NCBI GenBank assembly: GCA_024137785.1
Contig: JAHRHZ010000250.1
Location: 580,943-644,942, forward strand
Direction: 5' to 3'
From: Ginglymostoma cirratum
Taxonomy: Eukaryota
Length of the DNA stretch: 64,000 nucleotides
In this document: positions 18,578 through 43,541 of the stretch, one piece after another
Layout of the letters: each line of letters begins with the position of its first letter
Numbering within the stretch: the stretch's first letter is position 1
Notes under the pieces: generated by a model
The model's database searches: none
What the model saw: the letters and a program-made list of their open reading frames with translations, nothing else
What the model was told of the DNA's origin: nothing
Position numbers and translations under genes: made by a program

Positions 18578-18579
18578 GA

Positions 18580-20250
18580 ATGTCCGTTCACTGAAAGACT
18601 TGGACAAGATCAAGACTTGCGCTGATAAGAAGCAAGCAGGATTGCATAACACAAGCTCTAGGCAGCAACCATTTCCCACAGGAGAGTATAAAACCAAACA
18701 ACTTTGAATGGCATTCCATCGCTGAACAACTCCACAATCAACAACCTGGATCTCAGTATTAAGTAGAAAATGAAGTGATCAAACCATAACCCGACTGGTT
18801 TCAAGAGCAGTTCACGGTCTGGGCATACTGCAGCAAATAATTCATTCCACATTCTCCCTGGAGCCCGTCCAACATCCACAATGCAAAAGTAAGAACACGG
18901 TGAAATACTCTCAACTAGGCTGGATGATTGATGCTCCAAGAACATTCCTAAAACTTTACACTCCATCACAGGGAGAATAAAAAAAACACAATTTATTAAC
19001 ATTTTAACTTACACCTCCAACGTTCACTCCCCGTAGGGAATATGGTGCTAGCAGGTTATTAATTTTTTGACGCGCCACGGGCATCACTGGAAGGTAATCT
19101 TTTATTGCTTCTATCTAATTACCCTCCTGAACTACGTTTGTCAATTGCTGAAGTCATTATGATGTAGGTAGCCCCGCAATGAATTGTAGAGGAACCTCTA
19201 TGATTTGAACCCCTTGTCACTGAAGTTACAATGATGCATTTCCAAGTCTGGAAGTTGACCGACTTGCAGGCGAACTTGCAGGTTCTGGTGTTCCCATGCA
19301 AAAATTGCCATTATCCTTAAAAATGCAAATGGCCTGAGGTTTAAAAGGAGCTGTCTGAGGAACCTCGGTGAATTTCTGCACTGCATCTATTCGACAGTAT
19401 ACCCGGCTGCCACTGAGCATCAGTGATATATAAAGTGAATGCCTCCGAATGTAAAGAAATAAAACGAGCTGCTTTGTCCTTGATGGCGTCAAGCTTCTTT
19501 GGTGATGTTAGAACTGTACCACGCAGGCAAGTGGGGAACATTACAATGCATTTCTGACATGTGTCTTGCAGATAGTAGACAGGCTTCGGGGCGTCTGGAG
19601 GCGAGTTACTCACTTCAAGATCCCTACCCTTTGATCTGTTCTTGTCGCCAACATATTTACATGGTTGGCCTTGTTTAAATTCTGGTCAATGGTAACCCCA
19701 GTACATTGACAGTGAGGGATTCATAGACGGTAATTCCAGGGTACATGAAAGGGTGATAACTGGATTTTCTGTTGGTGGTCAAGAAAAGATTGGATTTGAC
19801 AATGCAGTTTAAAGATCAGAGATATTGGGGGAAAAGCAGGAACACGATATTGAGTTGGATAATCACCCACGATCACAATGAAGGGCACAGTAGGCTAAAA
19901 TTTTTGAATAGCCTATTCATGCTCCTGTTTTCTACGTTTCTGTTGCCATTATCTGGTACTTTTATAGCATCAGCCCACTTGTTCACACTAGCCTGGAAAT
20001 TGTCCACGTCTTTTTGCCTTTGGGCATGGATTACTTCACTGTCTGAAGCACTGCAAAGGCTTTGATCATTTTACAGTCATCAGTGAGCATTGACACTTCT
20101 GACCTTGTGATGGATGGAATGTCATTGATGAAGAAGCTGAAGGTCGTCGTTTCTAGCGCAACGTAATGAACAGTTATTGCAGTGATGTGCTAGAGGTGAG
20201 CTACCTCAAACGTCCAACAGCCACAACGATATTTATTTGTCCCAAGAACC
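18580..20250. mobile_element. Old decayed LINE fragments (+ then -) shared by both duplicates
   Basis: Similar to the RT 3' region of the 7938 LINE (e.g. KKLDAIKDKAARFI on the minus strand). The paralogous copy is at 50115-51900. Confidence 0.65.
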
Positions 20251-21715
20251 AGTCAAACGATACGCAGTACGTTCAGAAATTCTCCACAATCACACACTTG
20301 GAAACCTTAGAGGGGAAGTTAGAAAGTTGTAGATTTAAATTGCATTCCATAAACCTGAGCATAAAATCTAGGCTGGCACCACAGTACTGTGCAGAAAGAA
20401 TGCCTCCCTGTTTGGAGGTGCAGTTTTAGGAACCATATTTTAAACTAAATTCCTTGTCTATCCTGCCAGGTAGTCCAAAATGTTCCCACGGCATTCTTTC
20501 AAAGAATAGGGAATCTCCTTGTTGACGTTCATCCCTCAATCTGTGCAATGAAAACAACATAGATTAACTTGGTCTTTTTCCTTCTGCTTCTGGGAACTAT
20601 CTTGATTACCACATTTCATCAAATTATATACTGGCTTGATTTTAATGATACGTTTCTCACCTAAATGCTGGTTAATGGACCGTGAGGCCATGAAGTACGC
20701 TGCAGAATTCTAATTCTTCTTTTGTGATAATGAATGCCGCTCTATAACCCCAGGTTAACCTTTTTAAGAAACACTTTACTCCCAATTTTTGCCATTATTA
20801 TATTATACTGGCGTTTGCTATTGACGTAATGAAGTGTTTCATGCCTAAATGCCAAGGAATTTAATTTCATAAAGTTAGCAGCCAGCACCACTGACTTATC
20901 AATCATTTTTGAGGGAGGCTAAAGTTTTCCGATAGTCTCTTTCACGGGCATCTGAGGTATAATTCTTCAAACTTCCAGGATGCTTCCATTTGCATTTTAG
21001 TAAGAAAAGGAATGAAACCTGCCATACACATCTGGTCTGGTCTGGTCTGCCCTCCATGTGATTCTATCTTAACGGTCTGCTGGGAAATGCGGAAAGAGCA
21101 ACAAACGATGAACTAACTCGTGGTAGTGACATCTTGTGAATGAATGAAGGAATGAATCAATAATAATAATAAACTTGTAACAAAACAGATGAGTTGACAA
21201 TGCAACTGGAAATAAGTATGTGTGATTAGAGAGACGGAGCTGCAAGATGGAAAAATTAGGACCTGGATATTCAAAAGTGTAATACATTTTACAAGTACAG
21301 AAGCAAGGTAAGGAATGAAGTGCATTTCTGTTATTTCGAATGATATCCGTACACTAAAACGTAATTATCTCAGTACTAGATATCAAAATGAAGAATTAGT
21401 TTGTCTAGATGTGAGAAAAAAAAACGGAAGTTAAACGTCAGTTTTGTTCCTGGTTTATAGGCTCCCTGGTATTAACCATCCTGTGACCGAGAGTATACAA
21501 TAAAATGTAATTGGGACGTGCCAATAAAGAACGCCAACAATCATGAAATATTTTTGTTTACCTACAGGTTGGAGTAACCACCTTGGCAACAGTAGCCTTG
21601 GTGATCAGTTAGTACAATTCTCCAGGCACCTTTGGAAGAAAAGCGCTTTCTAGACCGAAACAGACAGCAGGCAATATTCCAGGTATTGTTATGAACCTGT
21701 CAGATATTAGCACAA

Positions 21716-21819
21716 GAGATAACAAGCATGGGGCTGGATGAACACAGCAGGTCAAGCAGCATCATAGGAGCAGGAAAACTTGACGTTTCGGGCCTAAACC
21801 CTTCATCAGAAACACCAGA
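21716..21819 (-). mobile_element. Young Penelope-type terminal repeat with intact minimal hammerhead core (21781-21809)
   Basis: Minus strand reads ttt-CTGATGA-a-GGG-tttagg-CCC-GAAAC-GTC-aag. The element is absent at the paralogous site (about 55540). Confidence 0.7.
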
Positions 21820-23204
21820 CGTTTGAAGACCAAACTAAAGCTCTATATCAAAGGTGCCACCAACTAGAAAGGCTATATTTTCAGGGCTGAACCAAAGTTT
21901 TAAAGGTACAGGAGCCATCGTATTATTTGGTATCATCGTACAAGTTAGAAAGGATGAACATTTTATTTTTGTTTTTATTAAAAAAAAAACTAGTGATATA
22001 GCAGCTTATTCACAAGTCTTATCCGATAACACAAGCGCTTGTTTCATTTTCAGCAATTCTTATTTTGGCTAGGAAGTTCAATGGATTTCTGGTAATGCAT
22101 CTGTCCTGATAACAAAAATCATTAAAATGAAGGTCTTAAAATGTTATTTTTGTCTAAGATGCAAATTACCCTTATTGAGAACATTTATTTTGGAAGGAAG
22201 ATATTGTCAGAAAATGGTTTTACTGACAAGTCGGTATGTAGATTGTTAAATTAAGTAAGAATTAAAACCCACATTTTTATAACCAGTCGATGGTGGCAGG
22301 TATTGAATCGACGATGTATTTTGTCAGAATCATAGCTCTTTCACCAATTCAAATTATGTTAAACATGCTTTTTTAAAGGAAGCATTATGTGAAACCCTCT
22401 TTGTATTAATGAGACAAGAGAATTTACTGACAAACATAGAAAGTGCTGAAAATGCACAGTCTCTGTGCAAGTAGAATCGCAGCGAAAGTTTGAGGGAGGC
22501 AAGCTTTCACCAGAAATCATTAAAGACATCTTAGTGTGATGAATTGGAACAAAACTGAAAAATGTACTAATTGTATCAGTTTGTATGGCAGTTGCATAAA
22601 TGTTGTGGAATTAATCAATACGCAATTGAATTCAAGGTTCAGCTGAATTTGATGCAATAAGACATTCTAAAGAACTATTGTGTTGGGCCGTCTTGTGGTG
22701 CATTGGTAGTGTCCCGACACCTGAACCAAGAAACCCGGCTTCAAGTACCTGCTCTAGAGGTCTGTAATAATATGTCTGAACAGGTTCATGGGAAAAATTG
22801 GATAATTTCTCTGTTTAAAAAGAGAAAGGACTACTACGTGTAGTAGTACTGCTACTACTCTTTGGATGCAAGAAGAGTGTCCCTATCGCTGGACCGGGAT
22901 GGCGGGGTCAAGCCTAACCTGTGCGAGAGGGGTGTACTAACATCTGTAAAAAGGTTGATTCGTAAAATAGGTTAAATAATTTAAGAGGAAATACCGTAAA
23001 CTTCTCAAACTAAATACAAAATTACGAAACAAACTCGCTAAAGATAAGGAAATTTAGAAGTTAATTGAAGAAGCCGAACATGCAATTTGATGATTCCACA
23101 TATTTTTTACATTAACCAAACTTGTTTTCAAAGTTTATTCACAATTGAATATGCAAGCTATTTTGTAAAGTATTATTTTTGCACGATCGGCGTTTAATAA
23201 AAGT

Positions 23205-23950
23205 TACGTGACATTCGCGCCACACAAATGCCGGGCGATGACCATCATCAATAAGAGACAATCTATTCACCACCCCTTGACATTCAATGAATACCATCAT
23301 TGAATCCCCCACTATCAACATTCTGGGGGCTACCATTGACGTGAAACTCAACTGGACTCACCACATTAACAGAGTGGTTACAAGAGCAGACCCGAAGCTG
23401 GGAATACTGCGGCGAGTAACTCACCACCTGACTCCTCAAAGTCTGCCCACCATCTACAAGGCACAAGTCAGGAATGTTATGGAATACTCCCCACTTGCCT
23501 GGATGAGTGCAGGCCCAGCAACAATCAAGAAGCTTGACACCATCGAGGTAAAAGCAGCCGGCTTGATTGACAGTACATCTACAAGCATTCACTCGATTCA
23601 CCATCGACACTCAGTAGCAGCAGAAAGTACTATCTACAGCACCTTCCAAAACCACGTCGACTTCCATCTCGCAGGACAAGGGTAGCAGATATATGGGAAT
23701 ACCACCACCTCCAAGTTCCCCTCCAAGTCACTCACCATCGTGACTTGGAAATATATCGTCGATTGTTCACTGTCGCTGGTTGAAAAACCTGGAATTCCGT
23801 TCCTACTAGCATTATGGGTCAAGCCACAGCAGGAGGACTCAGCGGTTCAAAAAGGCAGCTCACCACCACCTTCTCAAGAGCAACTAGGGATGGGCAAGGA
23901 ATGTTGGCCAGCCAGCGACGCCCACAACCCACAAATGAATAAATAAAAAA
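23205..23950 (+). mobile_element. 5'-truncated LINE (same family as 7938-11152)
   Basis: ORF INILGATIDVKLNWTHHIN...IYKAQVRNVMEYSPLAW and an A-rich tail. Absent at the paralogous site (about 57430). Confidence 0.85.
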
Positions 23951-24248
23951 TAAAATACTTTGCACATAAATGTCTTCAGTTTGGAAGAAAAATAAAAATG
24001 CCAGATAATCTAAATTTAACACTGTTCACACGAAAGTGCATGCAATGTAAAATTGACAATTAATGACATCATAAATATATTCCACGAATTATAATATTCT
24101 TTTAATGTATGTCATATCATAAGTTAGCCGAACGTGTGGTTACACCGTAAATACAACTAACTATGTTTCCTTGTCTGAAGATTTTGATTGCACACATTTA
24201 AATAAATATTTTTGAAGCAGTGCAGCTTTAAGATCAGTTGTTGCAGTT

Positions 24249-24286
24249 ATTGGTTGGGACACTTTGTGTCGCTGTCTACCAATAAG
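24249..24286 (+). promoter_or_regulatory. Pcdh CSE-like promoter motif (CGCT core between ATTGG and CCAAT)
   Basis: attgg...gtgtcgctgtctaccaataag about 240 bp upstream of the ATG. The motif recurs before every Pcdh 5' end present in the window. Confidence 0.8.
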
Positions 24287-24507
24287 GAGCTGAAACACTG
24301 GTCGAGATCTACCCACCTCCTCTCGCAGGGCTTGAAGGCGAAGATTAACAATAAAGGAGGCAGACTGTAGCCGCATTCATGATGAAAGGACGTGTTCCGA
24401 AGAGAATTCCTAGCTCTCGCGTCAGTATTAGAAATTAGATGTGAGGATGCCCATTTTATCCGAGGCGACAAGGTAACTAATAATTATTGAAAAATCAACA
24501 AAGAGCA

Positions 24508-26913
24508 ATGGCAAACATATTCGGCAGCAGGGCGTCTTTCATTTTTCTGCACAGTGTATTGGACCTCGTTTTGGGGCAAATTCACTACTCGATTCCCGAG
24601 GAGTTGGAGTATGGGGCCTTCGTAGGGCATATCGCTGAGGATTTGAGTCTGAACGTTCGGGAATTGTCGGGCCGCAAATTTCGACTCGTCTCTGACAGCA
24701 GAAAGCAATACATGGAGGTAAATCAAAACAGTGGAATATTATTTGTCAATGCAAGAATCGACAGAGAACAGCTTTGCAGTAAAAGCTCTGCCTGCTTCCT
24801 TTCTTTTCAAATAATGCTCGAAAACCCTGTGGAAATGCATCGCGTTTCAGTGGAAATCCTGGACATAAATGATAATACACCGAGTTTTCCAAAGGACGAG
24901 TATGCTTTACGGATCAGTGAAGCCATTGCACCAGGAACGCGTTTGCCTCTTGAGAGCGCCCACGATTCGGACGTAGGCACGAATGCGATTAGCGGTTACC
25001 AGATTAGTATAAACGAACATTTTGGCCTAAAATTTCAGACCAGAAATGATGCGAGTACAAGTGCCGAACTGTTATTAGAAAAGCCCTTGGATCGTGAACA
25101 ACAATCAACTTTTGACCTTGTGCTTACTGCCGTTGACGGTGGGACTCCTCACAGATCCGGCACTGCTCGGATTCGAATTTATATTATGGACGTAAATGAT
25201 AACGCGCCGGTGTTTGATCATGAAACATACAGGACCAATGTTGAAGAAAACACCCCGAAAGGTACTCTAGTAATAAAAGTCAATGCTGTTGATGCAGATG
25301 AAGGCACAAATGCTGAGCTAACATATTCTTTCACGAGTCACGCTTCGCAAAAGGCTCGTGAGGTTTTCAAATTAGACCCAACAACCGGAGAAATCAGAGT
25401 TGAAGGAGCACTAGATTTTGAAGAATTGGCTATGTATGAGCTTGATGTAGAAGCTGTGGATAAAGGTCCCTATCCAATGGTAGGACATGCGAAAGTTATC
25501 GTCGGATTAATCGATACGAACGACAATGCCCCTGAGATTGAGGTGACGTCATTATCCAGTACAGTACCGGAAGATGCTGTGCCTGGGACCAGGATAGCTA
25601 CGATCAGTGTAAAGGATGCTGACTCCAATGAAAACGGACAAACTCAGTGTGATGTTGAAATGGATGTGCCATTTCAATTACAGACGACTGTAAGGAGCAG
25701 CTATAATTTGGTCACTAGCAGCGTTTTGGATCGGGAAACAACCCCAACATACAATATATCAATTTCGGCTCGTGACAAAGGATCTCCGCCTCTAGCCACA
25801 AGGAAGGTTCTAATTGTGTCAGTTTCTGATGTAAACGACAATGCGCCAAGATTTACACAATCCATGTACAACGTGTTTGTAATGGAAAACAATAGCCCTG
25901 GCGCTTCTTTGTTTGCTGTCACTGCTTCGGATCTAGATTTGAATCAGAATGGAGAAGTGTCCTATATCATCTTGGAAAAGCAAATAAAACATGGATCTGC
26001 CTCTCCTTATATTACGATTGACTCGAAGAGTGGAAATATTAATGCTATACTTCCATTCGACTATGAAAAGCTGAAGAGCTTTCAGTTCAAAGTTCAAGCT
26101 CGGGATGGTGGAACTCCCTCCTTGAGCAGTACTGCCATTGTGGAAGTTATTATTCTGGATCAAAATGACAATGCTCCACTTATTATTTCGCCTTCAGCGT
26201 GGAATGTTTCGTCAGCTGTGAAGATTCTGGGTCAATCGCTATACCCGGGGAATTTGGTCACCAGGGTAATCGCAACCGATGCGGATTCAGGGCAGAACAT
26301 GCGGCTTTCCTTCAAAATTCTTGAAGCCACTGATCCCAGTCTCCTCAGTGTCGGCCTTCTCACTGGAGAAATAAAAGCAGTCCGACGTTTTCAGAACTAC
26401 GACTCCACAGTACAAAGAGTAGTTATCTTGGCGCAGGATAATGGACAACCCAGTCTCTCCAGCACGTCTACAATCTACTTTTCAATCATACCCAATGACA
26501 CAGAAAAGGTCTCTGTGCATAGTCACCAAACCAGAAATTCAGAACATTTTTCGGATCTGAATGTTTATTTAATCATCTTGTTTGGTTCCACATCTTTTAT
26601 ATTTCTTGTAATCATAATTTTCCTGGTGGCGCTGAGGTGCAAACAAGCCAGGAATTCAAATTATTATGAGTCCACAAATTATTGTTGCTGTAGGCGGAGG
26701 GTGTCGAATGCTGCTTTTAGTCGGAGAGCTGTCCCGAAAGAATTGCTTAGTTACCCTGCTGGACTTCAGACGCTCCCCATTTCTGAAGGGAATCAGTACA
26801 CTGTCTGTTTATCTCCAGAATCTTCCAAAAGTGATTTCTTATTCTTGAAGCGTTGCGAAGTAACTTTCCCTCTTAATAATTTGAATGTTCATGGCAGCAG
26901 TGTCGGAAAATAA
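24508..26913 (+). CDS. Clustered protocadherin, type B copy 1 (801 aa; SP, 6 EC repeats, TM, short tail)
   Basis: YSIPEE, RIDREQLC, repeated DxNDN/LDRE/DxD motifs, TM segment and SKSDFLFLK tail. The first ATG is 24508 (the ORF track starts at an upstream TTG). Confidence 0.95.
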   Translation: MANIFGSRASFIFLHSVLDLVLGQIHYSIPEELEYGAFVGHIAEDLSLNVRELSGRKFRLVSDSRKQYMEVNQNSGILFVNARIDREQLCSKSSACFLSFQIMLENPVEMHRVSVEILDINDNTPSFPKDEYALRISEAIAPGTRLPLESAHDSDVGTNAISGYQISINEHFGLKFQTRNDASTSAELLLEKPLDREQQSTFDLVLTAVDGGTPHRSGTARIRIYIMDVNDNAPVFDHETYRTNVEENTPKGTLVIKVNAVDADEGTNAELTYSFTSHASQKAREVFKLDPTTGEIRVEGALDFEELAMYELDVEAVDKGPYPMVGHAKVIVGLIDTNDNAPEIEVTSLSSTVPEDAVPGTRIATISVKDADSNENGQTQCDVEMDVPFQLQTTVRSSYNLVTSSVLDRETTPTYNISISARDKGSPPLATRKVLIVSVSDVNDNAPRFTQSMYNVFVMENNSPGASLFAVTASDLDLNQNGEVSYIILEKQIKHGSASPYITIDSKSGNINAILPFDYEKLKSFQFKVQARDGGTPSLSSTAIVEVIILDQNDNAPLIISPSAWNVSSAVKILGQSLYPGNLVTRVIATDADSGQNMRLSFKILEATDPSLLSVGLLTGEIKAVRRFQNYDSTVQRVVILAQDNGQPSLSSTSTIYFSIIPNDTEKVSVHSHQTRNSEHFSDLNVYLIILFGSTSFIFLVIIIFLVALRCKQARNSNYYESTNYCCCRRRVSNAAFSRRAVPKELLSYPAGLQTLPISEGNQYTVCLSPESSKSDFLFLKRCEVTFPLNNLNVHGSSVGK

Positions 26914-27795
26914 TAATTTTCAACTGAAAATATTTCGTAACGATTTATTGGTGACTGGAGTTTACCTATCGTTCATGACATTTAATGCACGTATCCACGT
27001 TACCATGGCTCTAACTTGTACGGTTATTAATCATGATGCCTGTTTGGTTGATATGAATGTTGTGAATGTCTTCAGAAGAGCATGTTGTAATGACGCTAGA
27101 GTACAAAGCTCACTACTGTAACTACTGATTGTCATTATTTTGTCAAATCTAAATATTTGAAGTCGATATTCCCGTGTTCACTTGAAATGTAGCCGATAAC
27201 GTCTCTAAAATCTTTCTCTTCATTATTTTCCCTGAAAATTAGATTTTAGTTAAGAATTTCTGCAGCAGTTAGACATTTTAAAATAAGCAGCTCTTGCATA
27301 ATATCGTCAGATTTTATTCCCTGAAGTAGCTTTACCTCTTAATGATTTGAATGTTCATGGCAGCGGTGGAGCAAAGTAATAATTTTCAACTGGAAATAAT
27401 TGTTCGCGATTTATTGCTGAGTGGAGTTTATCCATTGCTCAAAATAATTAAAATGCACCTGTACTCATACACACTGCACAGATATGTGCAAATATTAATC
27501 GTCATACCTGTTTGGTTGATGCGAATATTTTGAATGGCTTCAGTCGAGCATGTTGTATTCACACTAGTGTGAAGAGCTCACTCCCTAGTTGTTGTAATTT
27601 CCCTGTTGTCAAAGGTCCGAAATATTTGAAACCAACATTCCGCTTGTAATCAGACATGTAGCTGATGACGACCCTACAACATTTCTGGTCACTCTGTTCC
27701 GTTAAAACTATAGATTTTAATTAAAAATATGTGAAGCAGTTAGACATTTTAAAACTCATATCTCTTGCGTGATATTCTTAGATTTTATTCCTTGA
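26857..27795 (+). repeat. Tandem duplication (about 470 bp) of the Pcdh C-terminus and 3' flank
   Basis: Unit 1 (26857-27324) encodes EVTFPLNNLNVHGSSVGK*. Unit 2 (27323-27795) encodes EVALPLNDLNVHGSGGAK*. Both end in gattttattcc.tga. Confidence 0.9.
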
Positions 27796-29329
27796 TCGCG
27801 TAGATTGATGTTAAAGGGGATAAATTGAGCTAAAAGCAAAGATCAAATGCACGTAATTTTGTCATTTCTGCCAGTACTGAATGATGTGGTCATCTCGTTA
27901 AATTATTTTTAAAATAAGTTTTTTTTCAGATGAGGGCAAAATGAAACAAGAGTTTGTCTTTAATTTATAAAGTTTTTTTTTTAGTAATTCAATACTTCGT
28001 TGGAGCTTAAGATTTTTCATGAAGACATTGTGAAGGAAAGTATTTAAAAACATTTCTGAAGCATATCAGGTTAAGAATAAACTGCCGTGAACTTGACGAC
28101 GTTGGATCAGCAGGTTTTAATCAATCTTAAACGTTAATGTAGAAAATATATTCGTGAACAGTAATAGGCTAGAAATTAATACAGCAGAAGCTAATTCAGA
28201 ACGAATCACTTCCATTAGTAAACATAGCCGAAGCAATCTGATTCGTCGCAGTCTCCAACTTGATTCTCTAACGCTCCCGAACATTACTAATCCAACAGAC
28301 AAATTTGGAAGTGCTTTCCTGTTTGCAGTCAAAATTACTCTTATTTAGATCGTTGTGCCTTGGCATTTTGGAGATGTAACTGTTCAATGGTTTATTTTGC
28401 AATTTTGTCCCATTCGTCAATAAATCTGACTCTTAGCATGAATTATGTTCATACTGTTAACTTAGATAGAAAAGAAGCAGTGGAAGCATGGAAAAGAATG
28501 TTTTACTGTGGGGGACAAAATTTTCTAACATACAGAGCTTAAGGTAGAAATGTGGATGCCATGGATTAGAGGCAAACTGTAAAATTTTAAAGTTATAACT
28601 CATAAGAAGACATAGCAAGTGATGAATAATAGAGGAAAGCCCACGTGCATTACAGGCATGTTGAGATGTAAATGTTATCTTCAGGCGAGCAAAATAAAAA
28701 TATGCTGCAACTAACCAAATATATTACTCTTTCCAAACGTTTAAACTGTCTAATAACATACTAATAGCTGAATGGTCGTACAATCCTTTAAATTCTGTTG
28801 ATTTTAACTTTACTAGACAGAGATTCAACATTGGCGAGAAGAGCAGATTGTGTGAGGATACTGAGATAGATAATTATCATCACCTTCATAGGCAACTGAG
28901 GTGAGGATCCTGCGATAGACAGCTTCACCTAGTTTAGTAAGTATGTGAGGAACACGAGATAAGTTGGCACCACCTTCAGGAGCATTCAAATTGAACAGCT
29001 AGCAACTGTATACAGGTATCACCAAGAAGAGTGGGCGAGGAGAGAACGTGCGACTGGTCGTCAGCCACACCCTGAGGAACCGGCAATTTGAGCGGCCTGA
29101 GACATTTAGATAGAGACAGATGCATGGTAACTGATAGGAATTGATCTTGGTCTGCTGCAAAGACAGTAGCTAGTTGTTTGCTGAGACTCTTGTAATTGAT
29201 TACAAAATTTCTATTCCTAGGTTTAATCCTAGTATAACAGTTGGTGGTGAAGATAAAGGTAGTAAAATGTGGAAAGTAACATAAACTCGTGAAAACGTAC
29301 ACAATCATTCAAAAAATATTAATTATGGG

Positions 29330-32300
29330 AGTGACGTTGATGTGCCACAGAATCTCAGAATGTGGGAATTTCAGTTTGCTCCAAAATTACAGTGTTTGAT
29401 TCCAGCTGTTGTGTTCCAGCCTTTTGCGACCGTTTGAGACGTCTGCTCATTGCTTGAAAAGAACTTTCAGTGGCAAAATTTCCAGTTCTGTGGAAATGTG
29501 GGATTTGTACTCACCTGTACTTTACCTCTACTGTGCATAACCCAGTCTTTTCGTTGTCCACATAGCTAGGAAAATAGACGGGATTTTAAATTAAACATTG
29601 AATTAAATGGGGACCAATGATCAAATATGTGATGACGCTGTAAAGTAAAGACAAGGTCAAGGTCAAATAGAAAGACAGGAAGACAGGCGGTCAGAAACAC
29701 GCTGCGACAGCCAGGAAGAGAGCGAGAGCGTGAATGCACGATTCAATCAACAAATAAAACTCGAATTTGCAAAGAGAGCAAACTGACCTAACTAAATTCT
29801 TGATTTCTGATTGAATGTAACATTTAAAACAATAAAATAACCTGAGAAATAAACTAAAAATGTAAGTAGCATCAGGTGATAAGGCTCAAGACCCGAGTCG
29901 TTTCGGTGCAGGCCATTTAAGAATGTCTGGAAAATGTGAGGCGGTGACTTTTCAGTGAAAGATTGTATCAGCATAAGAAACAGCGGTGAAGTAAGTCCAG
30001 TAAACCGAGATTGGAAACAGTTTGCATGGAAACAAGAAGTGATAGAGTCAAAGTCATTTTGGAAGAGGCATACAGACGTCTAAAAGTAACCATACTGCTC
30101 GGTTGCGAAAAGGGAACAAAAAGTGAGAGATTGTTAGAAAGGAACGGCACAAATCAATGGATACTTTACTTTTCATATTGAATGGAAAAGCCAACTGGGA
30201 AAAGATAACCTCGGTGAGGGGATCCTAGAATGTATTCGGGACACGTTTTTAGTATATTCTGAAGCTGAGAGAACACCAGTCCAAACTAGATCTAGGTTTT
30301 GTTAATAAAATAGAATTAATTCATAGTCTTCACGAGAAGAAGCCCGAGATAGTAGCAAACATAGAAAGACTGAAATTACATATCTGTTGAAGGGAGCGAG
30401 GAATCGGTTGGTGACGACTTCTAAAACTTAATTTTGGACATTAAGGTGCTCATGATAGCAGAGCTGGCCAATGTGAATTTGCAAGTTAAGTTTAAAGGAT
30501 AGGTGAATAGCGATACTGCAGGCATTTAGTGTACTATTTCAAGCCTCTTACAATAGATACATTCAAAATAGTATGACAAAATTATAGATTGGTTAAGTAG
30601 AAAAAAGATAATACCAGGCTAAAAAAGAAACAGCACACAGTTGTGCAAACTCTGGAAACATGTTAAAATGCTGGATGTAATTTATTACAGCTATTAACGG
30701 CCAAAAGCCTAATATAGATGGAAATGATAGCGTGTGAAAGACAACCGTGCAGAAATAGTAAAGCTTTCTGTCAATAGTTTAAAATACTTTGCAAAGTGAG
30801 CGTTGGTCCTGTATAAAGTGAGACTGTAGGATTAATAAACGGAAGTTAAGAAACGATACACAGATTCACCAGGTACTTTGCGTTAGTTTTCTAAATAGAG
30901 GGCACAGGTAACATTCCATGAATGGTCGTAATCAGAAAATGAAAGGCAAGGAGGAATTCAGGAGAATCACTATCACCAGAAAAATTGAGCCCTGGACAGA
31001 AACGTATTCCGCCCTGAAGAACATTATTCTACGTTGTTAACACAAGTTGATGCATTTTCCAAAACTAATTTCACAAATTTGATTTCATTTTTGTACAAAA
31101 TTCTCTTGATTCTCTGGTCTCCTTAGATCTTAAGACAGGGAATATGACTTCTTCATTAAAAAGAGAAGGTGACAGAAAGGCAATATCTACAAGACGTACG
31201 TATCCAAAATGTTACAAGTAATGATTAAAGAAGGTATTGCTCAGTAATTGTAAAAGTCCAAATTAACCTGGTGGAGACAGCATGTTTTAGTTAAATGGGA
31301 AATTATAGTTCAACAATCAATTGTAGTTCTTTGAGGAGTTAACATGTTCTGTGGATGAAGGGAACCCAGTAAGTATGCAGAACTTAGATTTCCAGTTGGC
31401 ATTTGAATAGGTGAAATATCAAAGGTTATTGAAGAAAATAGTAATTCATTCTGTAGACCGTATCATGCTGACATGAAGGGAAGATTAGAAGCATAAAGGG
31501 AAATAGAAAATAGGAAGAATACATTTTATTCCGATTGGATTGACGAAACAAATACTGATTCACAGGTATAAGTGCTGAGCCTCAGTTGTTTAAAACTTAC
31601 TTCAATTGCATGAATTAAGAGAGAGAAATTATAGTTGACAAGTTTACCAAGGACACAAGGATAATTAGGAAGGTAAATAGTGGAAGAAATTATCGTGGAA
31701 TGGTGGGGGTTGAACACCAACGTTGGGAAGTTATAATTCAATCGTACAGCGTTGTAGGACTCTGTCTTGCACGGTACTGGTCACTTTATATAAGGAAGAA
31801 GATCAATACTTTGTAAGAGGTTGATAAAAATGACTAAATTAAAGGACTTAATGGGTGTGGGGTACCTTATGAGGAAGGCATGGACCGGCTAGAATTGCGC
31901 CGTCTGCATCTGGAAAAGTGAGAGGTGATTTACTTCAAACATTTCACATCCTGGGGGATCTTGGTAACGTAGACATGGAGAGCATGTTTCATGTAATGGG
32001 AGACTCTACACCAAGGGCTCACAGTTTTAAAATCAGGGATTGCTGATTTGAAACAGAGATGAAGCAAAATATTTTACTTCAAATGTTGCAAGTTTTTGAA
32101 TTCTCTTCCTGAAGAGGTAGTGGATGCAGAATCCTTGAACATGTTTCAGGAAGAGATACGTCGATTATTGTTAAGCAAGGAGCTGAAAGTTTAACAAGGT
32201 TAAGCCGAAACCTGGATTTAAGATAACATGCAGATTAACTATGACTGATGAAGAATCAGATGAGAATCGAAATGTTGATTCTGATTCACTCTCTATAAAT

Positions 32301-32460
32301 GCTACCGGGCTTTAAGAGCTCCTCCAGTACTTTATATTCTTATTTCTGAATTCCAGCATCTGCAGTATTTTGTTTTTACCTGAATGTCTTACCTGAATGT
32401 TTTACCTGAATACCTGGAATGCTTGAGTGACCTACTCCACCTTCTAACTCGTGCATATGT
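29330..32460 (+). mobile_element. Heavily decayed CR1-like LINE
   Basis: Remnants of NARS (29733), of DFQ.AF (31385) and of a CR1-like 3' end, comparable with the reverse complement of 46947-50105. No intact ORF. Confidence 0.6.
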
Positions 32461-33469
32461 ATATATTCTAAAAATGTTATCATATCATGTTGAACCTGTT
32501 TTCAGAGCTCAATTGTAAATCGGAACGCATGACAACAGGGAGACAAAGCTAGTGTCTGCTCCTTTCAACAACTACTCTCCAGCTTTCATGTTAATACATA
32601 CCATGGCCCACCACATTTCTATCATAACCAATGTCATGGAATCTTGGTGAAGCAGGTCACCAGATCACTATATTGAGAGGATTTGTAATGAAGCAATTAA
32701 CGAAATTTATCAGATTCATTTCGGAAGTTGTTAGTGATCATAGTGCACCTTTACATTGCTCTTAGACTGTTCAATTATTCCAAAATTGAATGTCTCAGCT
32801 TGTCTTGTAAGTCACACAGTTTTTTGGTAATCATTTAATAAATTAGCATTTAAACAATGAACACAAAGATGCATTAAAGACATGCTTTCTGAATATGGAG
32901 GATAGCAGAAGTTCTTCAAGTCTGTTGTTTTTCTGTGAAACTTTGCTTGTTATTGGCCAACAACAATGTAAAGTGCCTCAAACAGCACCTGCAGCAACTA
33001 GTCTTATAGCTAGACCCATTTGAAGTAGTTTTAATGCAGACATTTCTAGGAATCAAGGATTTATGATTTTGATGCACAAGAAGTGGGCAACTTGGTTTGA
33101 CAAGACGTGCAAAACATATCACAAAACGATGGATTGTCCCTGTTGTCAAAGCTGAACACCAGCTGTGTTTCTGAATTAGATATGCATAACATCGCACTGT
33201 GCTTCATACAACTCTTATATTCGGTGGTTAAGAACAGGCCAAGATTTTTTTTTTACTCATCTTTGGTGTTATCTCTTTAGATTCTGATCAACAGATGCAG
33301 GGGAACTTGGGCCTCCAAATGTAATAGTTACGTGTAGTGATGAGAACATTTCCAGATGAGTTCCTTTGAACATGAGCAACTATAACATTTCAAGATCAAT
33401 ATTGAAGCCCAGGGTGTTGTATCTCCACGATAAGCAGCCCTCCAGTGGCAGTCTTTCAAATTCATTCAA

Positions 33470-35230
33470 GAGATGTGAACTCCACAAGTTGGCTGGCATT
33501 TATTGTACATTCCTAGTTGTTCTTGAGAAGGTGGTAGCGAGCTGCTTGCTTAAATTCCGCCGTCATTTGTCTTTTGTACACTTACAATGCATTTAGGGAG
33601 GAAGTTCTAAAATTTTGAGGCAGATGCAGTAAACATGCACTGATACAATCTCAAATAAGGACGATGCATATCTTGGAGGGGAACTTGCAAGTACTGGTGT
33701 GCTGATATATCTGCTGGATTTTCTTTCTTTCCCGTTGTAATTGTCGCATGTTTGGAAGGCGCTGCTAAAGGTGCTTTAATGAATTTCCACAATGGGCCTA
33801 ATAAATGGTACAAACTGCTGCTGTGGATCATCTGTGTAGAGGGAGTGAACGTTTCTGAATGTGATACCAATCACACGGGCTTTTTTGATCTGGATATTAT
33901 CAAATTCCTGGTGTTTTGTTGGAGCTTCATTCATCCAGGTAAGAGAGAGTCCTAACTTGTGCCTCGTTGATAGTAATCTGAGTGTGGGAAAACAAGGGAT
34001 GAATTACTCAATGCAAGATTCATAATCATTGAACTGCTGTTATAGGCACATTATTTAAATGGATGATTCAGGGTGGAAGTTCGAGTGGAATCCCGACCGT
34101 GTAGAAGCAAGCCATTTGGCCTATTCAATCGACACTGACCTGCAGAACAGGATCCCATCCAGACCCAACCCGCTAGCCTATCCATGTAACCTTGCATTTC
34201 CCATGACTAATGCACCTAGCCTGCACATTTGTGGACTGTGGTAAGAAACCAGAGCACCCAAAAGGACCCTGCGGTGAGAATGTGCAAATTGCACACCAAC
34301 AGTCAGCCGAGGCTGGAATTGAACTCAGGTCCCTGATGCTGTGAGGTAGCGATGCTTATCATCTTCCTACTGTGCCAACCTATTCAATTGCTAGTTAATG
34401 GTAATCTCTGGGATGTTGATTGTGAAGCATTCAATGATGGTAATGCATTTCAATATGAACATCTTGACTATCTGACAAGTTGTGGTACTGTACAGTTTTC
34501 AATCCTCAACGAAAATTTCTGAATGCATGATCGATCCAAGATCAACAATGGAACAGTTGAAAGCTAGGACACCAGCAAGGATTCCGTTGTGCTGAGCTGA
34601 TTAATTTCCAACAAGCATGGTCGTCAACGTGTTTGCTCAGAATGACTCCAACTTGTGATGGGTTTTCTCCTTGATTTCCATTGATTTTAGCACTTCTAAG
34701 GCTCCTTGGTACAAGAATCGGTCAAGTGTGGCTTGATGACAAGGTCAGTCACTATCAATTCACCTCGGGAAAGTTTTCTTTCATTTTTGGTGCAAGGCTT
34801 TATTGAGGCCAAGAGCTGAGTGGCTCTGGCAAGACTTAATTTGCGCGACCTGAGCTGGTTATTCTGGAGAAAGTGGTTTTTGATAGTTCTGTTGCTGCCA
34901 GCTTTCATCACTTTCCCGATGATTGTGAGTAGACTGATTTAGCAATGATTGCAAAATCCGTACAGGACACACTCAGGTAATTATTCACATTGTCCTGTAA
35001 TTGCCACAGTTGCAACTGTCCTGGAACAGCCTAGGTAAGCAGTGGCAGATTCTGGAGCACAGTTCATCAGTGTTATTGCTGGAACGTTGTGAGGGTCCAA
35101 TGACTTTGCAATGTTCAGTGTCTCCAACTGTTTCTGATATCACGTGACCTGAATGGAAATATCTTTAGCCTGGCACCTGTGATAGTTGGGTTATCTGCAG
35201 TTGGCTGTTCTGAATCATACACTCGGCACT
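33470..35230 (-). mobile_element. Decayed LINE fragments of the 7938 family
   Basis: Colinear similarity to 7950-8640 and 8900-9580. Confidence 0.6.
34080..34378 (-). mobile_element. HE1-like tRNA-derived SINE
   Basis: gaaaccagagcaccc...gagaatgtgcaaa...gaggctggaattgaactcaggtccctgatgctgtgagg resembles shark HE1/V-SINEs. B-box-like motif on the minus strand. Confidence 0.65.
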
Positions 35231-35289
35231 TGGAGTCAGAGTGCCATTGATATGTACAGACTGGGAATGGACACTCATCCATGCTGACC

Positions 35290-35870
35290 CGATATCCCAA
35301 ATAAGTCTCTTCCCATTTGCCAGCATTAGGTCAATATCTCTCTCGACTCCTCCTATTAATATTGCTATCTAGATGCAGTTTAAATGTTGTAACTGTAACA
35401 GCCTACACCACTTCATCGGATAGTTCATCCCATATATGCACCACGTTTTGATTGAGAAAGTTGTCCCTTAATTTCTTTTTAATTCTTTCCCCTCTGATCA
35501 TACATCTCTGCCCTCTAGTTTTGGCCTCCCTTGCCCTGGGTAGAAAAAAATGTTCTTGATTATTCATGTCCCTCGTGGTTTTCTAAACTTTTGTAAGGTC
35601 GCCCCTCAGCTTTCGATGCCCCAGAGAAAATGGCCCAGCCTATTCAGTCTCTCTCTGTAGCTGAAACCCTCCAACTCTAGCAACAACCTTCTGAATCTTT
35701 ACTTAACCCTTTCAAGTTTCACAACATCTTTCCTATCGGAGGGAGACCAGAATTGCATGCAGTATTCCAATAGTGGCCTGTCCAATGCCCTGCACACCCA
35801 CAACATGACCTCTCAACTCCTATAATCAATGAACAAAGGCAAGTGTATCAAAGGCCCACTTCATTACTCT
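35290..35870 (-). mobile_element. CR1 3' fragment
   Basis: Similar to 46980-47600 (cagtattccaatagtggcct, ccctctagtttt). Confidence 0.65.
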
Positions 35871-36165
35871 GTTTACATTGACTAGCATTTTGATTGACAG
35901 TATAACCTATCAAATTAGGATTTAACTTGGCTCATTGCCTGACTTTTAGATTCAATAATATTTTAGTAATATCAGGGGCTTTCAGACAAGACAGTGAGTG
36001 TCCAGAAGTTGAAAGTATTCCTCTTAGACATGGCTGAACAGGTATATAATAGTCAGAGAAATTAAAAAAAACCTAATATATCTTCATTGTTCTAAAATGG
36101 ATGTTGACTCCCCCAACCCCCACCCCATGAACTAAAACAGAAATAGCAAAAGAGGAGCACCTCGT

Positions 36166-36940
36166 GTTATAATCTGTAATATGATCAGGAATATGAAAAG
36201 TGGAGTAACCTGCTTCTCAGCAACTCCCAGTGGTTGAATAAAATACATCTTTGACATTAATTTTAATATCAACAAGCAACAATTTATTTGTTTAACCCTA
36301 ACAGTAAACAAATTAATTAAACTATTAACAAACCGAATAAACCACTTCTAAATACTAACTTTCCTGAAAAAAAAACAAGATTCTAATGGTATATTGTACC
36401 AATAAATACAAGTCTTACTGTATGAATTTTTTAAAAAAATGTATTGTCTCAAAATTACATCCAGGTTATGTGTCTTCTGGAATGTCCCGTGCCTTCTCCA
36501 TCGAATCTTCTGTTAGGAACACCTTTTCTGTTGATTCCTCTGTGAGGAATATTAATTAGTTGTGACTTAGGTAACTTTGCTCTTTTAGATGGTGCTTTCT
36601 CTAAAACTTAGAGAAGACTGCAAGAGCCAAGGATTCTTTCTTGAGAGCCGAGAGCTGCTAACTCTGGCCGATGGCAGTTCACTCTCCTGTATGTATCCGT
36701 CTGCCCTCTTCTTTTATACTCTTGATGACGTATCAATTTCTTACAATAGCGTTGGCCTGATGTTATCAAAACCATCAGGTATAAATTTAATTGTTCTTTG
36801 GTATCTAAGTGTCTGGTTCAAATTGATTGGCTAAATTCAAAAATTTGTTGCCTGTGTAACAAAACAAAACTGCTTTGCCATTTAATTTTACTGCTATTTG
36901 CTGCAAATGTTTCAAATCCGGCGCTCTCCGTGTGCTGTCA
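36166..36940. mobile_element. Possible LTR remnant
   Basis: Begins tgtt, ends tgtca, and has LTR-like AT-rich composition with promoter and polyA-like motifs on the minus strand. No partner LTR identified. Confidence 0.3.
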
Positions 36941-37682
36941 AAGCTTCAAATTGATCACAGACATTCTTTTTAAATCTCTAAACATAGAAAAAGCACATAA
37001 TCTTTTAAAGGGACAACGCAATGCTTCCACCCCTTGCATTTGACAAACACTAAGTTCAAACTTCATGCCTCCCAAATCTACAAGTATTCCACCCAACTTC
37101 ATAGCATCTTCTTTGAGCATTTCCTTGTGAAATATTTTATCCACCCCAGAAATATCTATATTTTGCCTCGTTGAATTCGAGTTTTGCTCTTGTAGAATTT
37201 ACAAGAGTAATTCAAAGGTTTGTTAAGGTTTCTTTAACGAAATCTTCCAAAACAGTGCCCTATATGAACTAGAAAAATAAGGGCAGCATATAAATTATTA
37301 AACCTTCGTCTGCAATTTCCCCACCAAGCCACATGCAATCTTGATTTGGAATTGGATTGACATTCCTTCACAGATACTTTGTTAACGTCCTGAAACTCCA
37401 TTCTTAAAAGCACTGCTTATCTAGTAAAAGTGAAGGACTGCAAAGTATCAGGAAGACAACTTACCACTAGCTTCTTAAGAGTAAGAAAAGTGAGCAGAAG
37501 TGTTGTCCTTACCTGAGATGCCAACATCTCACGAAAGAGTGCTAGTCAATGCTTTTATCCTCCTTTCTGGAGAATTCCATTTCATGCATTCCTGGCAATG
37601 TCCCACATCTCATTTTCGATATGCGTATGGTCATGGAAGCCTCAAATGTGCATCGAAATTCGTTTACTCATCATCCCCATGC

Positions 37683-37911
37683 TACTGATTTTAGAAAGAA
37701 TATTACAAAATAATGTATTACTTGTGTTTTTAAAGGAGTTTTAAATTGCGCAAGTAACATCCTTTCATTTTTTGCTGTTGGAATCAGTGTTAAAACAGTC
37801 CAACCTTAAAGACAGTTGGTGCAGTTATTGTTTGAGGCGGTACGTATGGCTGTCCACCAATAAGAAGCTGAAACCCTGCCTTGGATCTAAAATGCTCCAC
37901 TGTCCAGCCAA
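37683..37911 (+). promoter_or_regulatory. Orphan duplicate of a Pcdh promoter (CGCT mutated to GGCT), no exon downstream
   Basis: Aligns with 39130-39360, including gacagttggtgcagttattgtttga and gctgtc.accaataagaagctgaaac. Confidence 0.8.
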
Positions 37912-38864
37912 AGGTGGAACTCGATGGAGCAGTACATCGATTTAAAAATACTCCATGCTCTTACAAACGCCTCCATAGCCCTGTGCTGCGAACATTTCCA
38001 GGTCTACACCCTTTTGAGGTATTTGCACTGCTCCAATTCTGGTGATTTATTCATCCTGGATTTTAATTGCTCCGTTAGTGGGTGCTTTGCCACACCTGCC
38101 TAAGACCTCGACTGATCAATATTTCAGAATCATTTCGGGTAAATCTTAAAACCTGTTTCTGTTTTTGCAAGCTGTTGGCAATTTCATATATTACGTCCTG
38201 ACGTGATGATTACTCCAGCATTATTCTTTCCCCGCTTGCTTTTGATAATTATCACTGTGACTAACATGTCATGTTTCGCGATCTTATCCAGAAAGAAATA
38301 AAAATTTCTAAATTTGTAAAATTGCATGTTAAGTTTGGGTAATGTGGTGCTCACCTGTGCTTATTGGATTGAAGAATTCTCTGCAGTCAGTTTCATCAGC
38401 ACGCCAGTGAGGAGTGCAATTAGGAAGAGAATGTACTGGACTCGCTCGGAAGGAATGGCAGCATTTGAAACCAGAGTAACAGAGTTAATGTTTTAAAATG
38501 TGTTCCTCAACTCCCCTTGCCCGCAGTTTTTGACTGTGACATTATGTGCTTCCGTCATTTTCTGTTTTATTTCAGATCTGAAGCTTCAGATCTCTAATTA
38601 TATGGTTGACTCAGTTATATGGCATGGATCTGGGAGTATTCAGGAAGTAAAATTGGTGCTAAAATGATCGACTTAGTGTCTACACTCAGGTGGATGCTCA
38701 TGCAAGGTCCTGAAATAGGCATGACCTTCAGCGTGATCTGCACTTTGTACCAGAGAACAACAAGTGAAACTAAGTTACAGTATTCTAAATGTTACTGGTA
38801 AGTCTGTAATGATTACAGTAGACATTTGAGAGCTGGGCGACCACTGACTAATTGGAAAAAGAAA

Positions 38865-39065
38865 GAAAATGTTGGCGAAACTCAGCAGGCATGGTAGCAT
38901 CTGTGCAGAAAAAAAAGTCAACGTTGCTCTGAAAAAAATGTGTCACCGCACTCGAAGAATTTATTATTTCCTCTCCACGGATGCTACCAGATCTGCTAAC
39001 CTTCTCTAGGAATTTCTGTTATCTTTTTGTTTCAAATCTCCAGCATCCTCAGTTCTTTGTTTTGT
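38865..39065. mobile_element. Decayed inverted pair of Penelope-type terminal repeats
   Basis: ctcagcagg..tggtagcatctgtg on the left and ggatgctaccagatctgct on the right, same family as 3175-3310. The hammerhead core is decayed. Confidence 0.5.
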
Positions 39066-39291
39066 GTTGGTGATTAATTGAAAATGTTATTGCCAGGGGA
39101 ATGAGTATTTCTGCAGCAAAAGTAGGTTGTACCGATTTTAGGAAGGAAATCTACAAAATGTACTATTACTTATGCTTGTTAAAGTTCTTTAAGTTGCACT
39201 CGCACCATCCTTTCATTTCACGCTATTGGAATCAGTGCTAAAACAGTCCAACGTTAAAGACAGTTGGTGCAGTTATTGTTTGAAGCTGTAC

Positions 39292-39312
39292 GTGTCGCTG
39301 TCTACCAATAAG
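39292..39312 (+). promoter_or_regulatory. Intact CSE-like motif before a relic exon
   Basis: gtgtcgctgtctaccaataag, identical to the motifs at 24266 and 43323. Confidence 0.8.
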
Positions 39313-39555
39313 AAGCTGAAACGCGGCCTTGGATCGACAGTGCCCCCCCTCTCCAGCCAACGAATCACAGCGCAGGAGCGGAAAGACCAACGGAGCCTGC
39401 CTGCATGCCGTGCAGCCATTGTCAGCAGAGGTCCTCAGGTCTGCTTTTCTCTGTCTTCCTCTCTTCCGTATTAGTGCATTGATATATACCTGTAAGAGAC
39501 AAGATAAGGTAACCGATTTACCGATCCGTTTTACGGCAACATCCGACTGAGAGCA

Positions 39556-39805
39556 ATAGCAATAATGAGGAGGTGATTTTTATTTACCGGCTTTATGCGT
39601 CGGACCTGTTTACGGGACAAACATTCTGTTCGTTTCCCGAGGAGCAGGAACACAAGGCCTTTGTTAGAATATCGATGAGTATTTGATCGTTAAGTACATG
39701 GGAATTATTCACGCGGAAAACTCGGCTAGTCATTGACGTAAGAATATAATACATTGGGTTTAATTTGGAAATTCGACTTGTATCTGTTAATAAACCGCTG
39801 AGAGT
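39556..39805 (+). pseudogene. Relic 5' fragment of a Pcdh exon (SP + part of EC1)
   Basis: gagcaATAgc replaces gagcaATGgc. ttcccgaggagcaggaacacaaggcctttgttag aligns with ttcccgaggagttggagtatggggccttcgtagg (24593). The fragment ends at a SINE-like head (about 39815). Confidence 0.75.
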
Positions 39806-42800: not shown

Positions 42801-43322
42801 GTTTGCTCCTTGGCGAGGGGTGTTAGGTTCATCGGAAATGTGTTCCAATAACATTCAAAAAGAAGTTGTGTGCGTTAAAAAATAAACTGACTTTTGAGTC
42901 CCACCGCGAGTAAAAAAAAATCTGTTACTAATATAGACATAAATGTCATCACCACTGAAAGACTAAAATGACAGAATCAGCATTTTGGAAATGTTGTTGG
43001 CTTTTTCAAGTGCTACAGTATCTAAATTCTTTTAGAATCACCAAATCATGTTAAAGGCCTAACAATTTTGTCAAGTTGATAACCTACCACTGATAAAAAT
43101 ATATGGTGGAATGACATAATAGCGACTAAACATGGCCAAGCAGTAACGCCGAGATTGATAAAACAATGAAACGGCTCATGATTCCAATACACCACATTGA
43201 AAATAAAACCGAAATATAAAATTCTATCTGTCCGGATATTTTTAATTGTACACCTGTATTTTGACAAGCTCTCCAAACAGTTTAGCTTTAAGAATGGTTG
43301 CAGTTTTTGGGTGAAACTCGTC

Positions 43323-43343
43323 GTGTCGCTGTCTACCAATAAG
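43323..43343 (+). promoter_or_regulatory. Pcdh CSE-like promoter motif
   Basis: gtgtcgctgtctaccaataag about 220 bp upstream of the ATG. Confidence 0.8.
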
Positions 43344-43541
43344 AATTCGAGACGTTTTGAGAGATCGACCGCCTCCTCCGTTTGACAAACACAACCAAAA
43401 GGGGCAGTCGGTGTCTGCATTTATGTTGTGCAGTCACGATCAGAAAAGCTCCCGGGCGATATCCTTAATGTTGCGAGCTTCATGAACAGGATGTTATTAT
43501 GCAGCTAGCTGTTTTTGTTTTGTCAGACTTGACACATCAAT

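What the first reader, a model, noticed from the sequence alone, without database searches (positions are those of the whole stretch)
26857..27795. Fossil original 3' end left behind a gene-conversion tract reveals donor and recipient
Seen: after type-B copy 1, the segment 26857-27324 is almost identical to copy 2 (60358-60825). It is followed immediately by a diverged second version of the same segment (27323-27795, encoding EVALPLNDLNVHGSGGAK*). That version then runs colinearly with copy 2's flank at the ordinary diverged level (27796 vs 60826). Copy 2 has only one unit, and the junction shares only a GA microhomology. Inference: copy 1 was overwritten by a copy-2-like donor, the 3' end of the tract was rejoined non-homologously, and the recipient's old C-terminus was preserved. 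Such a directional scar of Pcdh concerted evolution is rarely visible.
Basis: partly seen in the sequence, partly recalled or inferred. Interest (0 to 1): 0.72.

Follow-up and report, generated by a model that had tools for sequence, protein, structure and literature searches.

The report
Repair scar in shark protocadherin gene
A shark brain cell-adhesion gene carries two back-to-back versions of its tail end, one nearly identical to a sister gene 33 kb away and one as diverged as the surrounding DNA, likely because a DNA break was repaired by copying from the sister gene and left the old tail behind, a known kind of repair accident seen unusually clearly.

Summary
Unit 1 (26857-27324) matches copy 2 at 455 of 468 bases. 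Unit 2 differs from copy 2 at 96 of 403 non-coding sites, the level of the duplicated block's flanks (1625 of 6930; p=0.86). Contigs of two other samples, one from another study, bridge the junction, so mis-assembly is unlikely. Best reading (about 0.62): a break in copy 1 was repaired by copying about 466 bases from copy 2 and rejoined by microhomology, leaving the old tail as unit 2. An imperfect 16-base homology also lies 10 bases before the GA join. Direction is inferred from divergence only: no orthologous DNA was examined and protein tails of relatives do not polarise it. An in-place tandem duplication followed by conversion stays possible. The mechanism class is known (repair-mediated duplication, non-canonical end of long-tract conversion). 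It is a clear new instance, in a fish group reported to have little protocadherin conversion, with no shown functional effect.

The parts
24213..24300 (+). Conserved promoter element of copy 1 (CGCT-type motif; the name CSE/CTCF site is recalled)
   Evidence: matches upstream of most paralogs at 71-85% and copy 2
24508..26913 (+). Copy 1 protocadherin reading frame, 801 aa, intact, one exon to its stop; inferred recipient
   Evidence: Pfam Cadherin_2, 5 Cadherin stretches, Cadherin_C_2
24508..25203 (+). Signal peptide, EC1-EC2: not recently converted
   Evidence: dS 0.216 and 0.219 against copy 2; 4-fold sites 11 of 83, like the unconverted A1/A2 pair at 13 of 82
25204..25842 (+). EC3-EC4: older conversion layer (left shoulder)
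   Evidence: 8 of 149 synonymous sites differ
25866..26998 (+). Most recent conversion core, EC5 to just past the stop; direction unknown
   Evidence: 3 mismatches in 1133 bases
26833..26848 (+). Imperfect homology to the end of the copied tract, followed by two GAAG words 10 bases apart
   Evidence: rank 1 of 2665 positions, score 7.5 for the copy-2 end and 9.5 for the unit-2 end; post hoc; read from the converted copy
26857..27324 (+). Unit 1: last 18 codons, stop and 411 non-coding bases, copy-2-like; inferred copied insert
   Evidence: 13 mismatches to 60358-60825; non-coding K2P 0.032
27323..27324 (+). Join, GA shared by both sides
   Evidence: bridged in runs X5 and X2
27323..27795 (+). 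Unit 2: inferred original 3' end of copy 1; dead 18-codon tail and stop at 27323-27379
   Evidence: 96 of 403 non-coding sites differ from copy 2, 99 of 403 from unit 1
27796..30398 (+). Copy-1 flank, colinear with the copy-2 flank at block-duplication divergence
   Evidence: 75.1-76.8% identity in three segments
58009..60414 (+). Copy 2 protocadherin reading frame, 801 aa, intact; inferred donor
60358..60825 (+). The single unit of copy 2, running straight into its own flank
18598..45992 (+). Block 1 of the ancient duplication (B gene, remnant, A gene); block 2 starts at 50129 and runs past the window's end

Best explanation
Copy 1 of a duplicated shark protocadherin gene carries a copy-2-like 3' end followed by a second, diverged 3' end, likely because a break in copy 1 was repaired by copying from copy 2, 33.5 kb away, and the new strand was joined back by microhomology, leaving the old end in place as unit 2. 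Shown: the two units, their identities, the GA join, the layered identity along the gene. Inferred steps: (1) a break at or before 26857 in copy 1; (2) the left end paired with copy 2 through coding homology and copied to 60825, about 410 bases past the stop, into DNA by then about 24% diverged where ordinary re-annealing would be poor; (3) the displaced strand joined the right end at GA, possibly after first pairing with the imperfect 16-base match 10 bases upstream and losing the 10 bases between two GAAG words; (4) at least one later conversion of unknown direction renewed 25866-26998. The join would date from about 0.03-0.055 substitutions per site, roughly a tenth to a fifth of the block's age, or earlier if unit 1 was refreshed since. 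The effect on the protein is a swap of an 18-residue tail differing at 6 positions and a longer 3' region; no function is shown.
For: Unit 2 vs copy 2 equals the flank level without any free parameter (96 of 403 vs 1625 of 6930, p=0.86; 14 flank windows of 400 columns range 0.19-0.28). Unit 1 is copy-2-like up to the join: the last 95 bases are identical and unit 2 differs from them 4 and 17-20 bases before the equivalent point. The left shoulder (8 of 149 synonymous sites) and right shoulder (13 of 326) have the same age (p=0.48) and both differ from the core (p=0.0002) and from EC1-2 (p=2e-7), as one older tract with a younger one inside would give. No third donor: 3 places in the genome. 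The arrangement is unique in the cluster sample: tail-versus-downstream score 136 for copy 1 against 16-24 for the other 16 frames scored (2 of them N artefacts), and no other pair among the 15 best printed has non-coding 3' identity above 74%; the A1/A2 pair of the same duplication is not homogenised (30 of 116 four-fold sites in EC5-end), so continuous homogenisation is not the local habit. Unit 1/copy 2 show no GC gain over unit 2 (34 vs 42 sites, p=0.42), as long-running biased conversion might give (expectation recalled; weak test). The repair route is demonstrated in cells: PMC5104497 (abstract, sections 7 and 10).
Against: No orthologous DNA was examined, so the empty site is not seen. 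Tails of bamboo/epaulette shark orthologs differ from unit 1 at 3-4 and from unit 2 at 5-6 of 18 residues but share no derived residue with either. The unit-2 end fits the upstream imperfect homology better than the copy-2 end does (9.5 vs 7.5), which suits an in-place tandem duplication. The last 95 identical bases are slightly too clean for an even scatter (p=0.015, post hoc), so conversion may reach the join after the fact, which weakens 'copy-2-like up to the join'. The 3-break nested model only ties the 1-break model (BIC 926.0 vs 926.1). A 2-base microhomology is within chance. The donor is 33.5 kb away, beyond the 5 kb that defines confident repair-mediated duplications (PMC2671141).
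Confidence: 0.62

Rival explanations
1. Early tandem duplication, direction undefined or reversed: the 466-base unit doubled in copy 1 about when the block duplicated (or just before, with copy 2 losing one unit); the join then acted as a wall, and conversion in either direction kept unit 1 and copy 2 alike up to it. Unit 2 is an old relic but says nothing about donor and recipient.
For: Gives the same pairwise distances. Unit-2 end fits the upstream imperfect homology best. The clean last 95 bases suggest conversion reaches the wall. Six of 7 amino-acid differences in EC3 have copy 1 matching the outgroups, which is compatible with copy 2 changing more.
Against: Needs the tandem to be as old as the block within about 15% (99 of 403 vs 23.4%), a coincidence. 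No other pair sampled keeps non-coding 3' DNA homogenised. No GC gain in unit 1/copy 2.
Confidence: 0.2
2. Two steps, same direction: copy 1's own 3' end was first doubled in place by slippage at the imperfect repeat, and the upstream copy was later overwritten from copy 2 up to the join. Unit 2 is still the old end and copy 2 the donor, but the join is not the end of a conversion tract.
For: Explains unit 2's divergence with no coincidence and the better fit of the unit-2 end to the upstream homology (9.5 vs 7.5).
Against: Requires ordinary conversion through about 410 bases at 24% divergence that stops within 4-17 bases of the join and leaves no unit-2-like patch in unit 1: at the 13 sites where unit 1 and copy 2 differ, unit 2 sides with unit 1 at 5 and with copy 2 at 8.
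Confidence: 0.13
3. Assembly artefact: collapsed or mis-joined paralogs produced a false tandem.
For: The coding cores are nearly identical, and X2's bridging contig carries copy-2 alleles at 11 of 13 diagnostic sites before entering unit 2, showing short-read graphs do mix the copies.
Against: Unit 1 has 13 private differences from copy 2; X1 and X2 hold both allele paths; X5, from another study, crosses the join with copy-1 alleles; no joint skipping unit 1 was listed.
Confidence: 0.02

Closest known systems
Repair-mediated duplication (Pace et al. 2009, PMC2671141; abstract, first third of Results, section on other vertebrates read)
   Same: Germline insertion of a few hundred bases (their proximal set: up to 619 bp) copied from one donor on the same chromosome, with microhomology and no poly(A) tail or target-site duplication; donor and acceptor can be told apart; found in zebrafish and chicken too.
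   Different: Donor is 33.5 kb away (their confident class is under 5 kb); donor and acceptor are paralogs, so one end is homologous and the insert lands in register in front of its own older counterpart; no empty orthologous site was seen here.
[quoted passage not shown] 2016, PMC5104497; abstract, sections 7 and 10 read)
   Same: [quoted passage not shown]
   Different: Shown in mouse ES-cell reporters with the sister chromatid as donor; here a fixed germline product between diverged paralogs, inferred from sequence.
Concerted evolution of clustered protocadherins (Noonan et al. 2004, not held, seen only as cited in passages of PMC2764143 and PMC4978886)
   Same: Lowest dS in EC5-EC6, highest in the N-terminal domains.
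   Different: Those passages describe elephant shark as having limited conversion (dS ratio 1.8-2.3); this pair goes from 0.22 to 0-0.006, and the tract runs 410 bases into non-coding DNA and ends at a tandem. It is one pair of 6 for which four-fold sites were counted.
Microhomeology at template-switch joins (PLP1 rearrangements, PMC6902434; passages read)
   Same: Short imperfect match of 70-90% beside a join.
   Different: Here the match lies 10 bases off the join and needs a further small deletion.

Membership tests
Clustered protocadherin, epsilon-like of cartilaginous fish | One large exon encoding six cadherin domains, membrane segment and short tail | tested here: met
   801-aa open frames; Cadherin_2, 5 Cadherin stretches, Cadherin_C_2
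Clustered protocadherin, epsilon-like of cartilaginous fish | Tandem same-strand array with a conserved promoter element per gene | tested here: met
   31 of 32 matches on one contig, + strand; promoter matches
Clustered protocadherin, epsilon-like of cartilaginous fish | Groups with Callorhinchus epsilon genes | tested here: inconclusive
   5 of 100 hits are named epsilon, none mu or nu, at 43-50%; no tree with them was built
Clustered protocadherin, epsilon-like of cartilaginous fish | Stop in the variable exon is the real end (no splicing to constant exons) | not tested
   Named epsilon proteins of 801-827 aa suggest it; the one raw RNA run laid no reads
Protocadherin concerted evolution | dS far lower in EC5-EC6 than in EC1-EC3 | tested here: met
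   0-0.006 vs 0.216, 0.219, 0.056
Repair-mediated duplication (Pace 2009) | Insert of 50 bp or more with a single donor on the same chromosome | tested here: met
   466 bases; 3 places in the genome
Repair-mediated duplication (Pace 2009) | Donor within 5 kb | tested here: not met
   33,501 bases apart; it works like one but is not filed as a member
Repair-mediated duplication (Pace 2009) | Microhomology, filler or deletion at the join; no poly(A), no target-site duplication | tested here: met
   GA shared, no filler, no A tract; 2 bases is within chance
Repair-mediated duplication (Pace 2009) | Empty orthologous site in a related species | not tested
   No orthologous DNA was examined; proteins show no copy-1 ortholog
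[quoted passage not shown] | Homologous at one end, microhomology at the other, second end retained | tested here: inconclusive
   Geometry fits but an in-place tandem plus conversion gives the same geometry
[quoted passage not shown] | Starts from a double-strand break, needs alternative end joining | not testable with these tools
   Ancient fixed event

The most novel reading that the evidence does not exclude
This is a fixed germline record of one paralog-templated break repair in a protocadherin cluster: it names donor and recipient, keeps the overwritten C-terminus, shows imperfect-homology priming at the join, and sets the wall within which this shark pair has since been homogenised in the mammal/teleost pattern (EC5-tail erased, EC1-2 kept), in a group reported to have little such conversion.
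Probability: 0.5. Interest if true: 0.5.

Novelty: new member of a known kind. Interest (0 to 1): 0.36.

Why it matters
Conversion between paralogs normally erases the recipient, so direction needs outgroups; here the erased end likely survives beside its replacement, giving direction, layers and a join sequence from one genome. It also shows strong C-terminal homogenisation in a shark protocadherin pair although cartilaginous fish are described as having little (PMC2764143 passages). It does not reveal a new mechanism or a function: the tail swap is 6 of 18 residues and unit 2 is non-coding. Useful as a worked case for how concerted evolution starts and where it stops.

Tried and rejected
Third donor or further copies: 3 places only; none of 13 fetched cluster stretches matched unit 1 or unit 2 at E 1e-3. 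Polarising with protein tails: no shared derived residue. Polarising with EC1-2: 3 derived sites shared by copy 2 and bamboo-shark orthologs against 0 for copy 1, but the tree leaves the fork open; domain-wise distances have no power. Copy-1 ortholog with a unit-2-like tail: none among 100, 9 and 1 proteins in near, longer and shorter searches (tails of the 9 long proteins were not printed); no type-B protein of whale or zebra shark was listed either, so this blank is weak. GC-bias test null. Expression: no RNA holder listed; X21 laid 0 reads, no test; X1 depths (50.5 shared, 38.7 and 17 on the two allele paths, 20.3 beyond the join) were not used because the library type is not on record. X2's mosaic contig was read as graph collapse, not as a further-converted allele; unresolved. 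Literature: 8 searches listed no description of this locus or of such a scar in a protocadherin cluster; 'conversion-duplication' (term recalled from fly gap-repair work) gave 0 papers; Yu 2008 and Noonan 2004 are not held, so their gene-level details and supplements may bear on novelty. Earlier findings of this scan: nothing.

Full report
Setting. The window lies in a clustered protocadherin array of a shark: 31 of 32 matches to the C-terminal 140 residues are on one contig, same strand. The best protein hits are from bamboo, cat, horn and sevengill sharks, and the Callorhinchus hits that carry a subcluster name are epsilon. Own-genome paralogs pair with whale and zebra shark proteins at 93-96%, so the animal is a carpet shark by inference. 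Copy 1 (24508-26913) and copy 2 (58009-60414) are intact 801-residue frames.

Observation. Confirmed at the stated coordinates. Unit 1 differs from copy 2 at 13 of 466 bases, all within 26999-27229. Unit 2 follows at once, shares GA with unit 1's end, encodes an 18-codon tail and stop, and runs on into copy 1's flank, which aligns with copy 2's flank. A genome-wide DNA search finds only these three places. X1 and X2 may include the sample the window came from; X5 is the independent one. An artefact is unlikely.

The duplicated block. A1 (43542) groups with bamboo/epaulette shark proteins (98/97) and A2 with whale shark and other bamboo shark proteins (100/99), so the duplication predates that split (26 rows, chosen by me from about 130 proteins at hand). 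In Chiloscyllium plagiosum one fused annotation has A1 followed by B, which is the position of copy 2. One B-type protein per species was listed for those sharks. Nine flank segments differ at 1625 of 6930 aligned sites, K2P 0.25-0.35.

Age of unit 2. Its non-coding part differs from copy 2 at 96 of 403 sites and from unit 1 at 99 of 403, neither distinguishable from the flanks (p=0.86 and 0.63). This is the main evidence: an original copy-1 end must show this value, whereas an in-place tandem could show any younger value.

Layers of conversion. dS between the copies is 0.216, 0.219, 0.056, 0.055, 0 and 0.006 for EC1 to EC6-tail. EC1-2 is not distinguishable from the flanks (p=0.17) and resembles the unconverted A pair at four-fold sites (11 of 83 vs 13 of 82), so copy 1 was not overwritten whole. 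EC3-4 and the far part of unit 1 have the same divergence (8 of 149 vs 13 of 326, p=0.48) and flank a core with 3 differences in 1133 bases. A change-point fit finds this nesting (9.9%, 3.2%, 0.3%, 4.0%) but it only ties a single-break model by BIC. Among 6 pairs counted, only this one has its lowest divergence in EC5-end; the other five have 0.21-0.27 there. Copy 1 alone has a tandem tail among 17 frames scored, 2 of which were N artefacts (these cover 13 stretches around the 16 best of 32 matches).

The join. Exact microhomology is 2 bases, which chance gives often. A 3'-anchored gapped scan of the tract end against 2665 positions of copy 1 ranks position 26848 first, 10 bases before the join, with two GAAG words bracketing the 10 bases; an unanchored version had 2 of 76 windows at the top score. 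This is post hoc, in AT-rich DNA, and read from the converted copy. It suggests priming on imperfect homology, as described for PLP1 joins (PMC6902434, passages). It cuts both ways: the unit-2 end scores higher than the copy-2 end (9.5 vs 7.5).

Mechanism. Most likely a break in copy 1, homology-primed copying from copy 2 past the stop into diverged DNA, and microhomology joining to the retained right end. That route is shown in mouse cells (PMC5104497; abstract and sections 7, 10), and germline templated insertions of this size are common in vertebrates (PMC2671141; abstract, first third of Results, section 12), although their confident class has donors within 5 kb. Whether the same event converted EC3-4 or only inserted unit 1 cannot be told. 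Rivals: early tandem with two-way homogenisation (0.20), in-place tandem then overwriting from copy 2 (0.13), artefact (0.02). Copy 2 as donor of unit 1 thus has about 0.75.

What is not shown. No orthologous DNA was examined, so the empty site and the tree of units remain open. Protein tails of seven outgroup sequences give only private changes: 4 in unit 2, 2 in unit 1/copy 2. No relative with a unit-2-like tail was listed. Expression and splicing are untested. No selection on the swap is evident; 7 of the 8 base differences between the two coding tails fall in codons that change a residue (read's alignment).

Known and new. C-terminal homogenisation of protocadherin paralogs is well known, and elephant shark is described as having little of it (PMC2764143 and PMC4978886, passages; PMC7811963 passages). 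The original shark and conversion papers were not available, and no supplements were seen. Eight searches listed no report of this locus or of such a scar. Verdict: real, probably read correctly as to direction, overstated as to extent, and a new instance of a known repair outcome. Interest 0.36.

Noticed in passing
window 37683-37911 (donor-like copy 39130-39360): A second templated insertion in block 1: about 230 bases, 81% like a protocadherin promoter 1.45 kb downstream, absent at the matching site of block 2 (L010 near 4870-4897), its CGCT core decayed. It fits a proximal repair-mediated duplication with an empty paralogous site; loss from block 2 is not excluded.
   Followed up: partly
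window 17250-18580: Broken, truncated type-A protocadherin copy, 77% like both A1 (43542) and A2 (L011), with frameshifts and a 280-base interruption.
   Followed up: partly
window 39240-39770 and L010 6200-6900: Promoter plus decayed 5' remnant of a further protocadherin in both blocks; stops in all three frames read.
   Followed up: partly
window 58726-58990 (EC3 of copy 2): Seven amino-acid differences from copy 1 in EC3 with dN 0.028 against dS 0.056; at 6 of 7 copy 1 matches the outgroups, so copy 2's EC3 changed after homogenisation; possible re-diversification of binding specificity.
   Followed up: no
window 26969-27965, run X2 record 7: A contig with copy-2 alleles at 11 of 13 diagnostic sites that then enters unit 2: graph collapse, or an allele of copy 1 converted again.
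   Followed up: no
L012-L015 (G000:C250 729-805 kb): Four paralogs where some pairs are closest in EC1-2 (four-fold 0.10) and far in EC5-end (0.25-0.27), the reverse of the usual pattern; possible older N-terminal conversion.
   Followed up: no
window 47752-48555 and 8500-8997, - strand: Reverse-transcriptase-like open frames, probably LINE fragments (recalled resemblance).
   Followed up: no
window 28419 and 61447: An AATAAA word at the aligned position in both flanks, about 1 kb past the unit end; candidate shared poly(A) signal.
   Followed up: no
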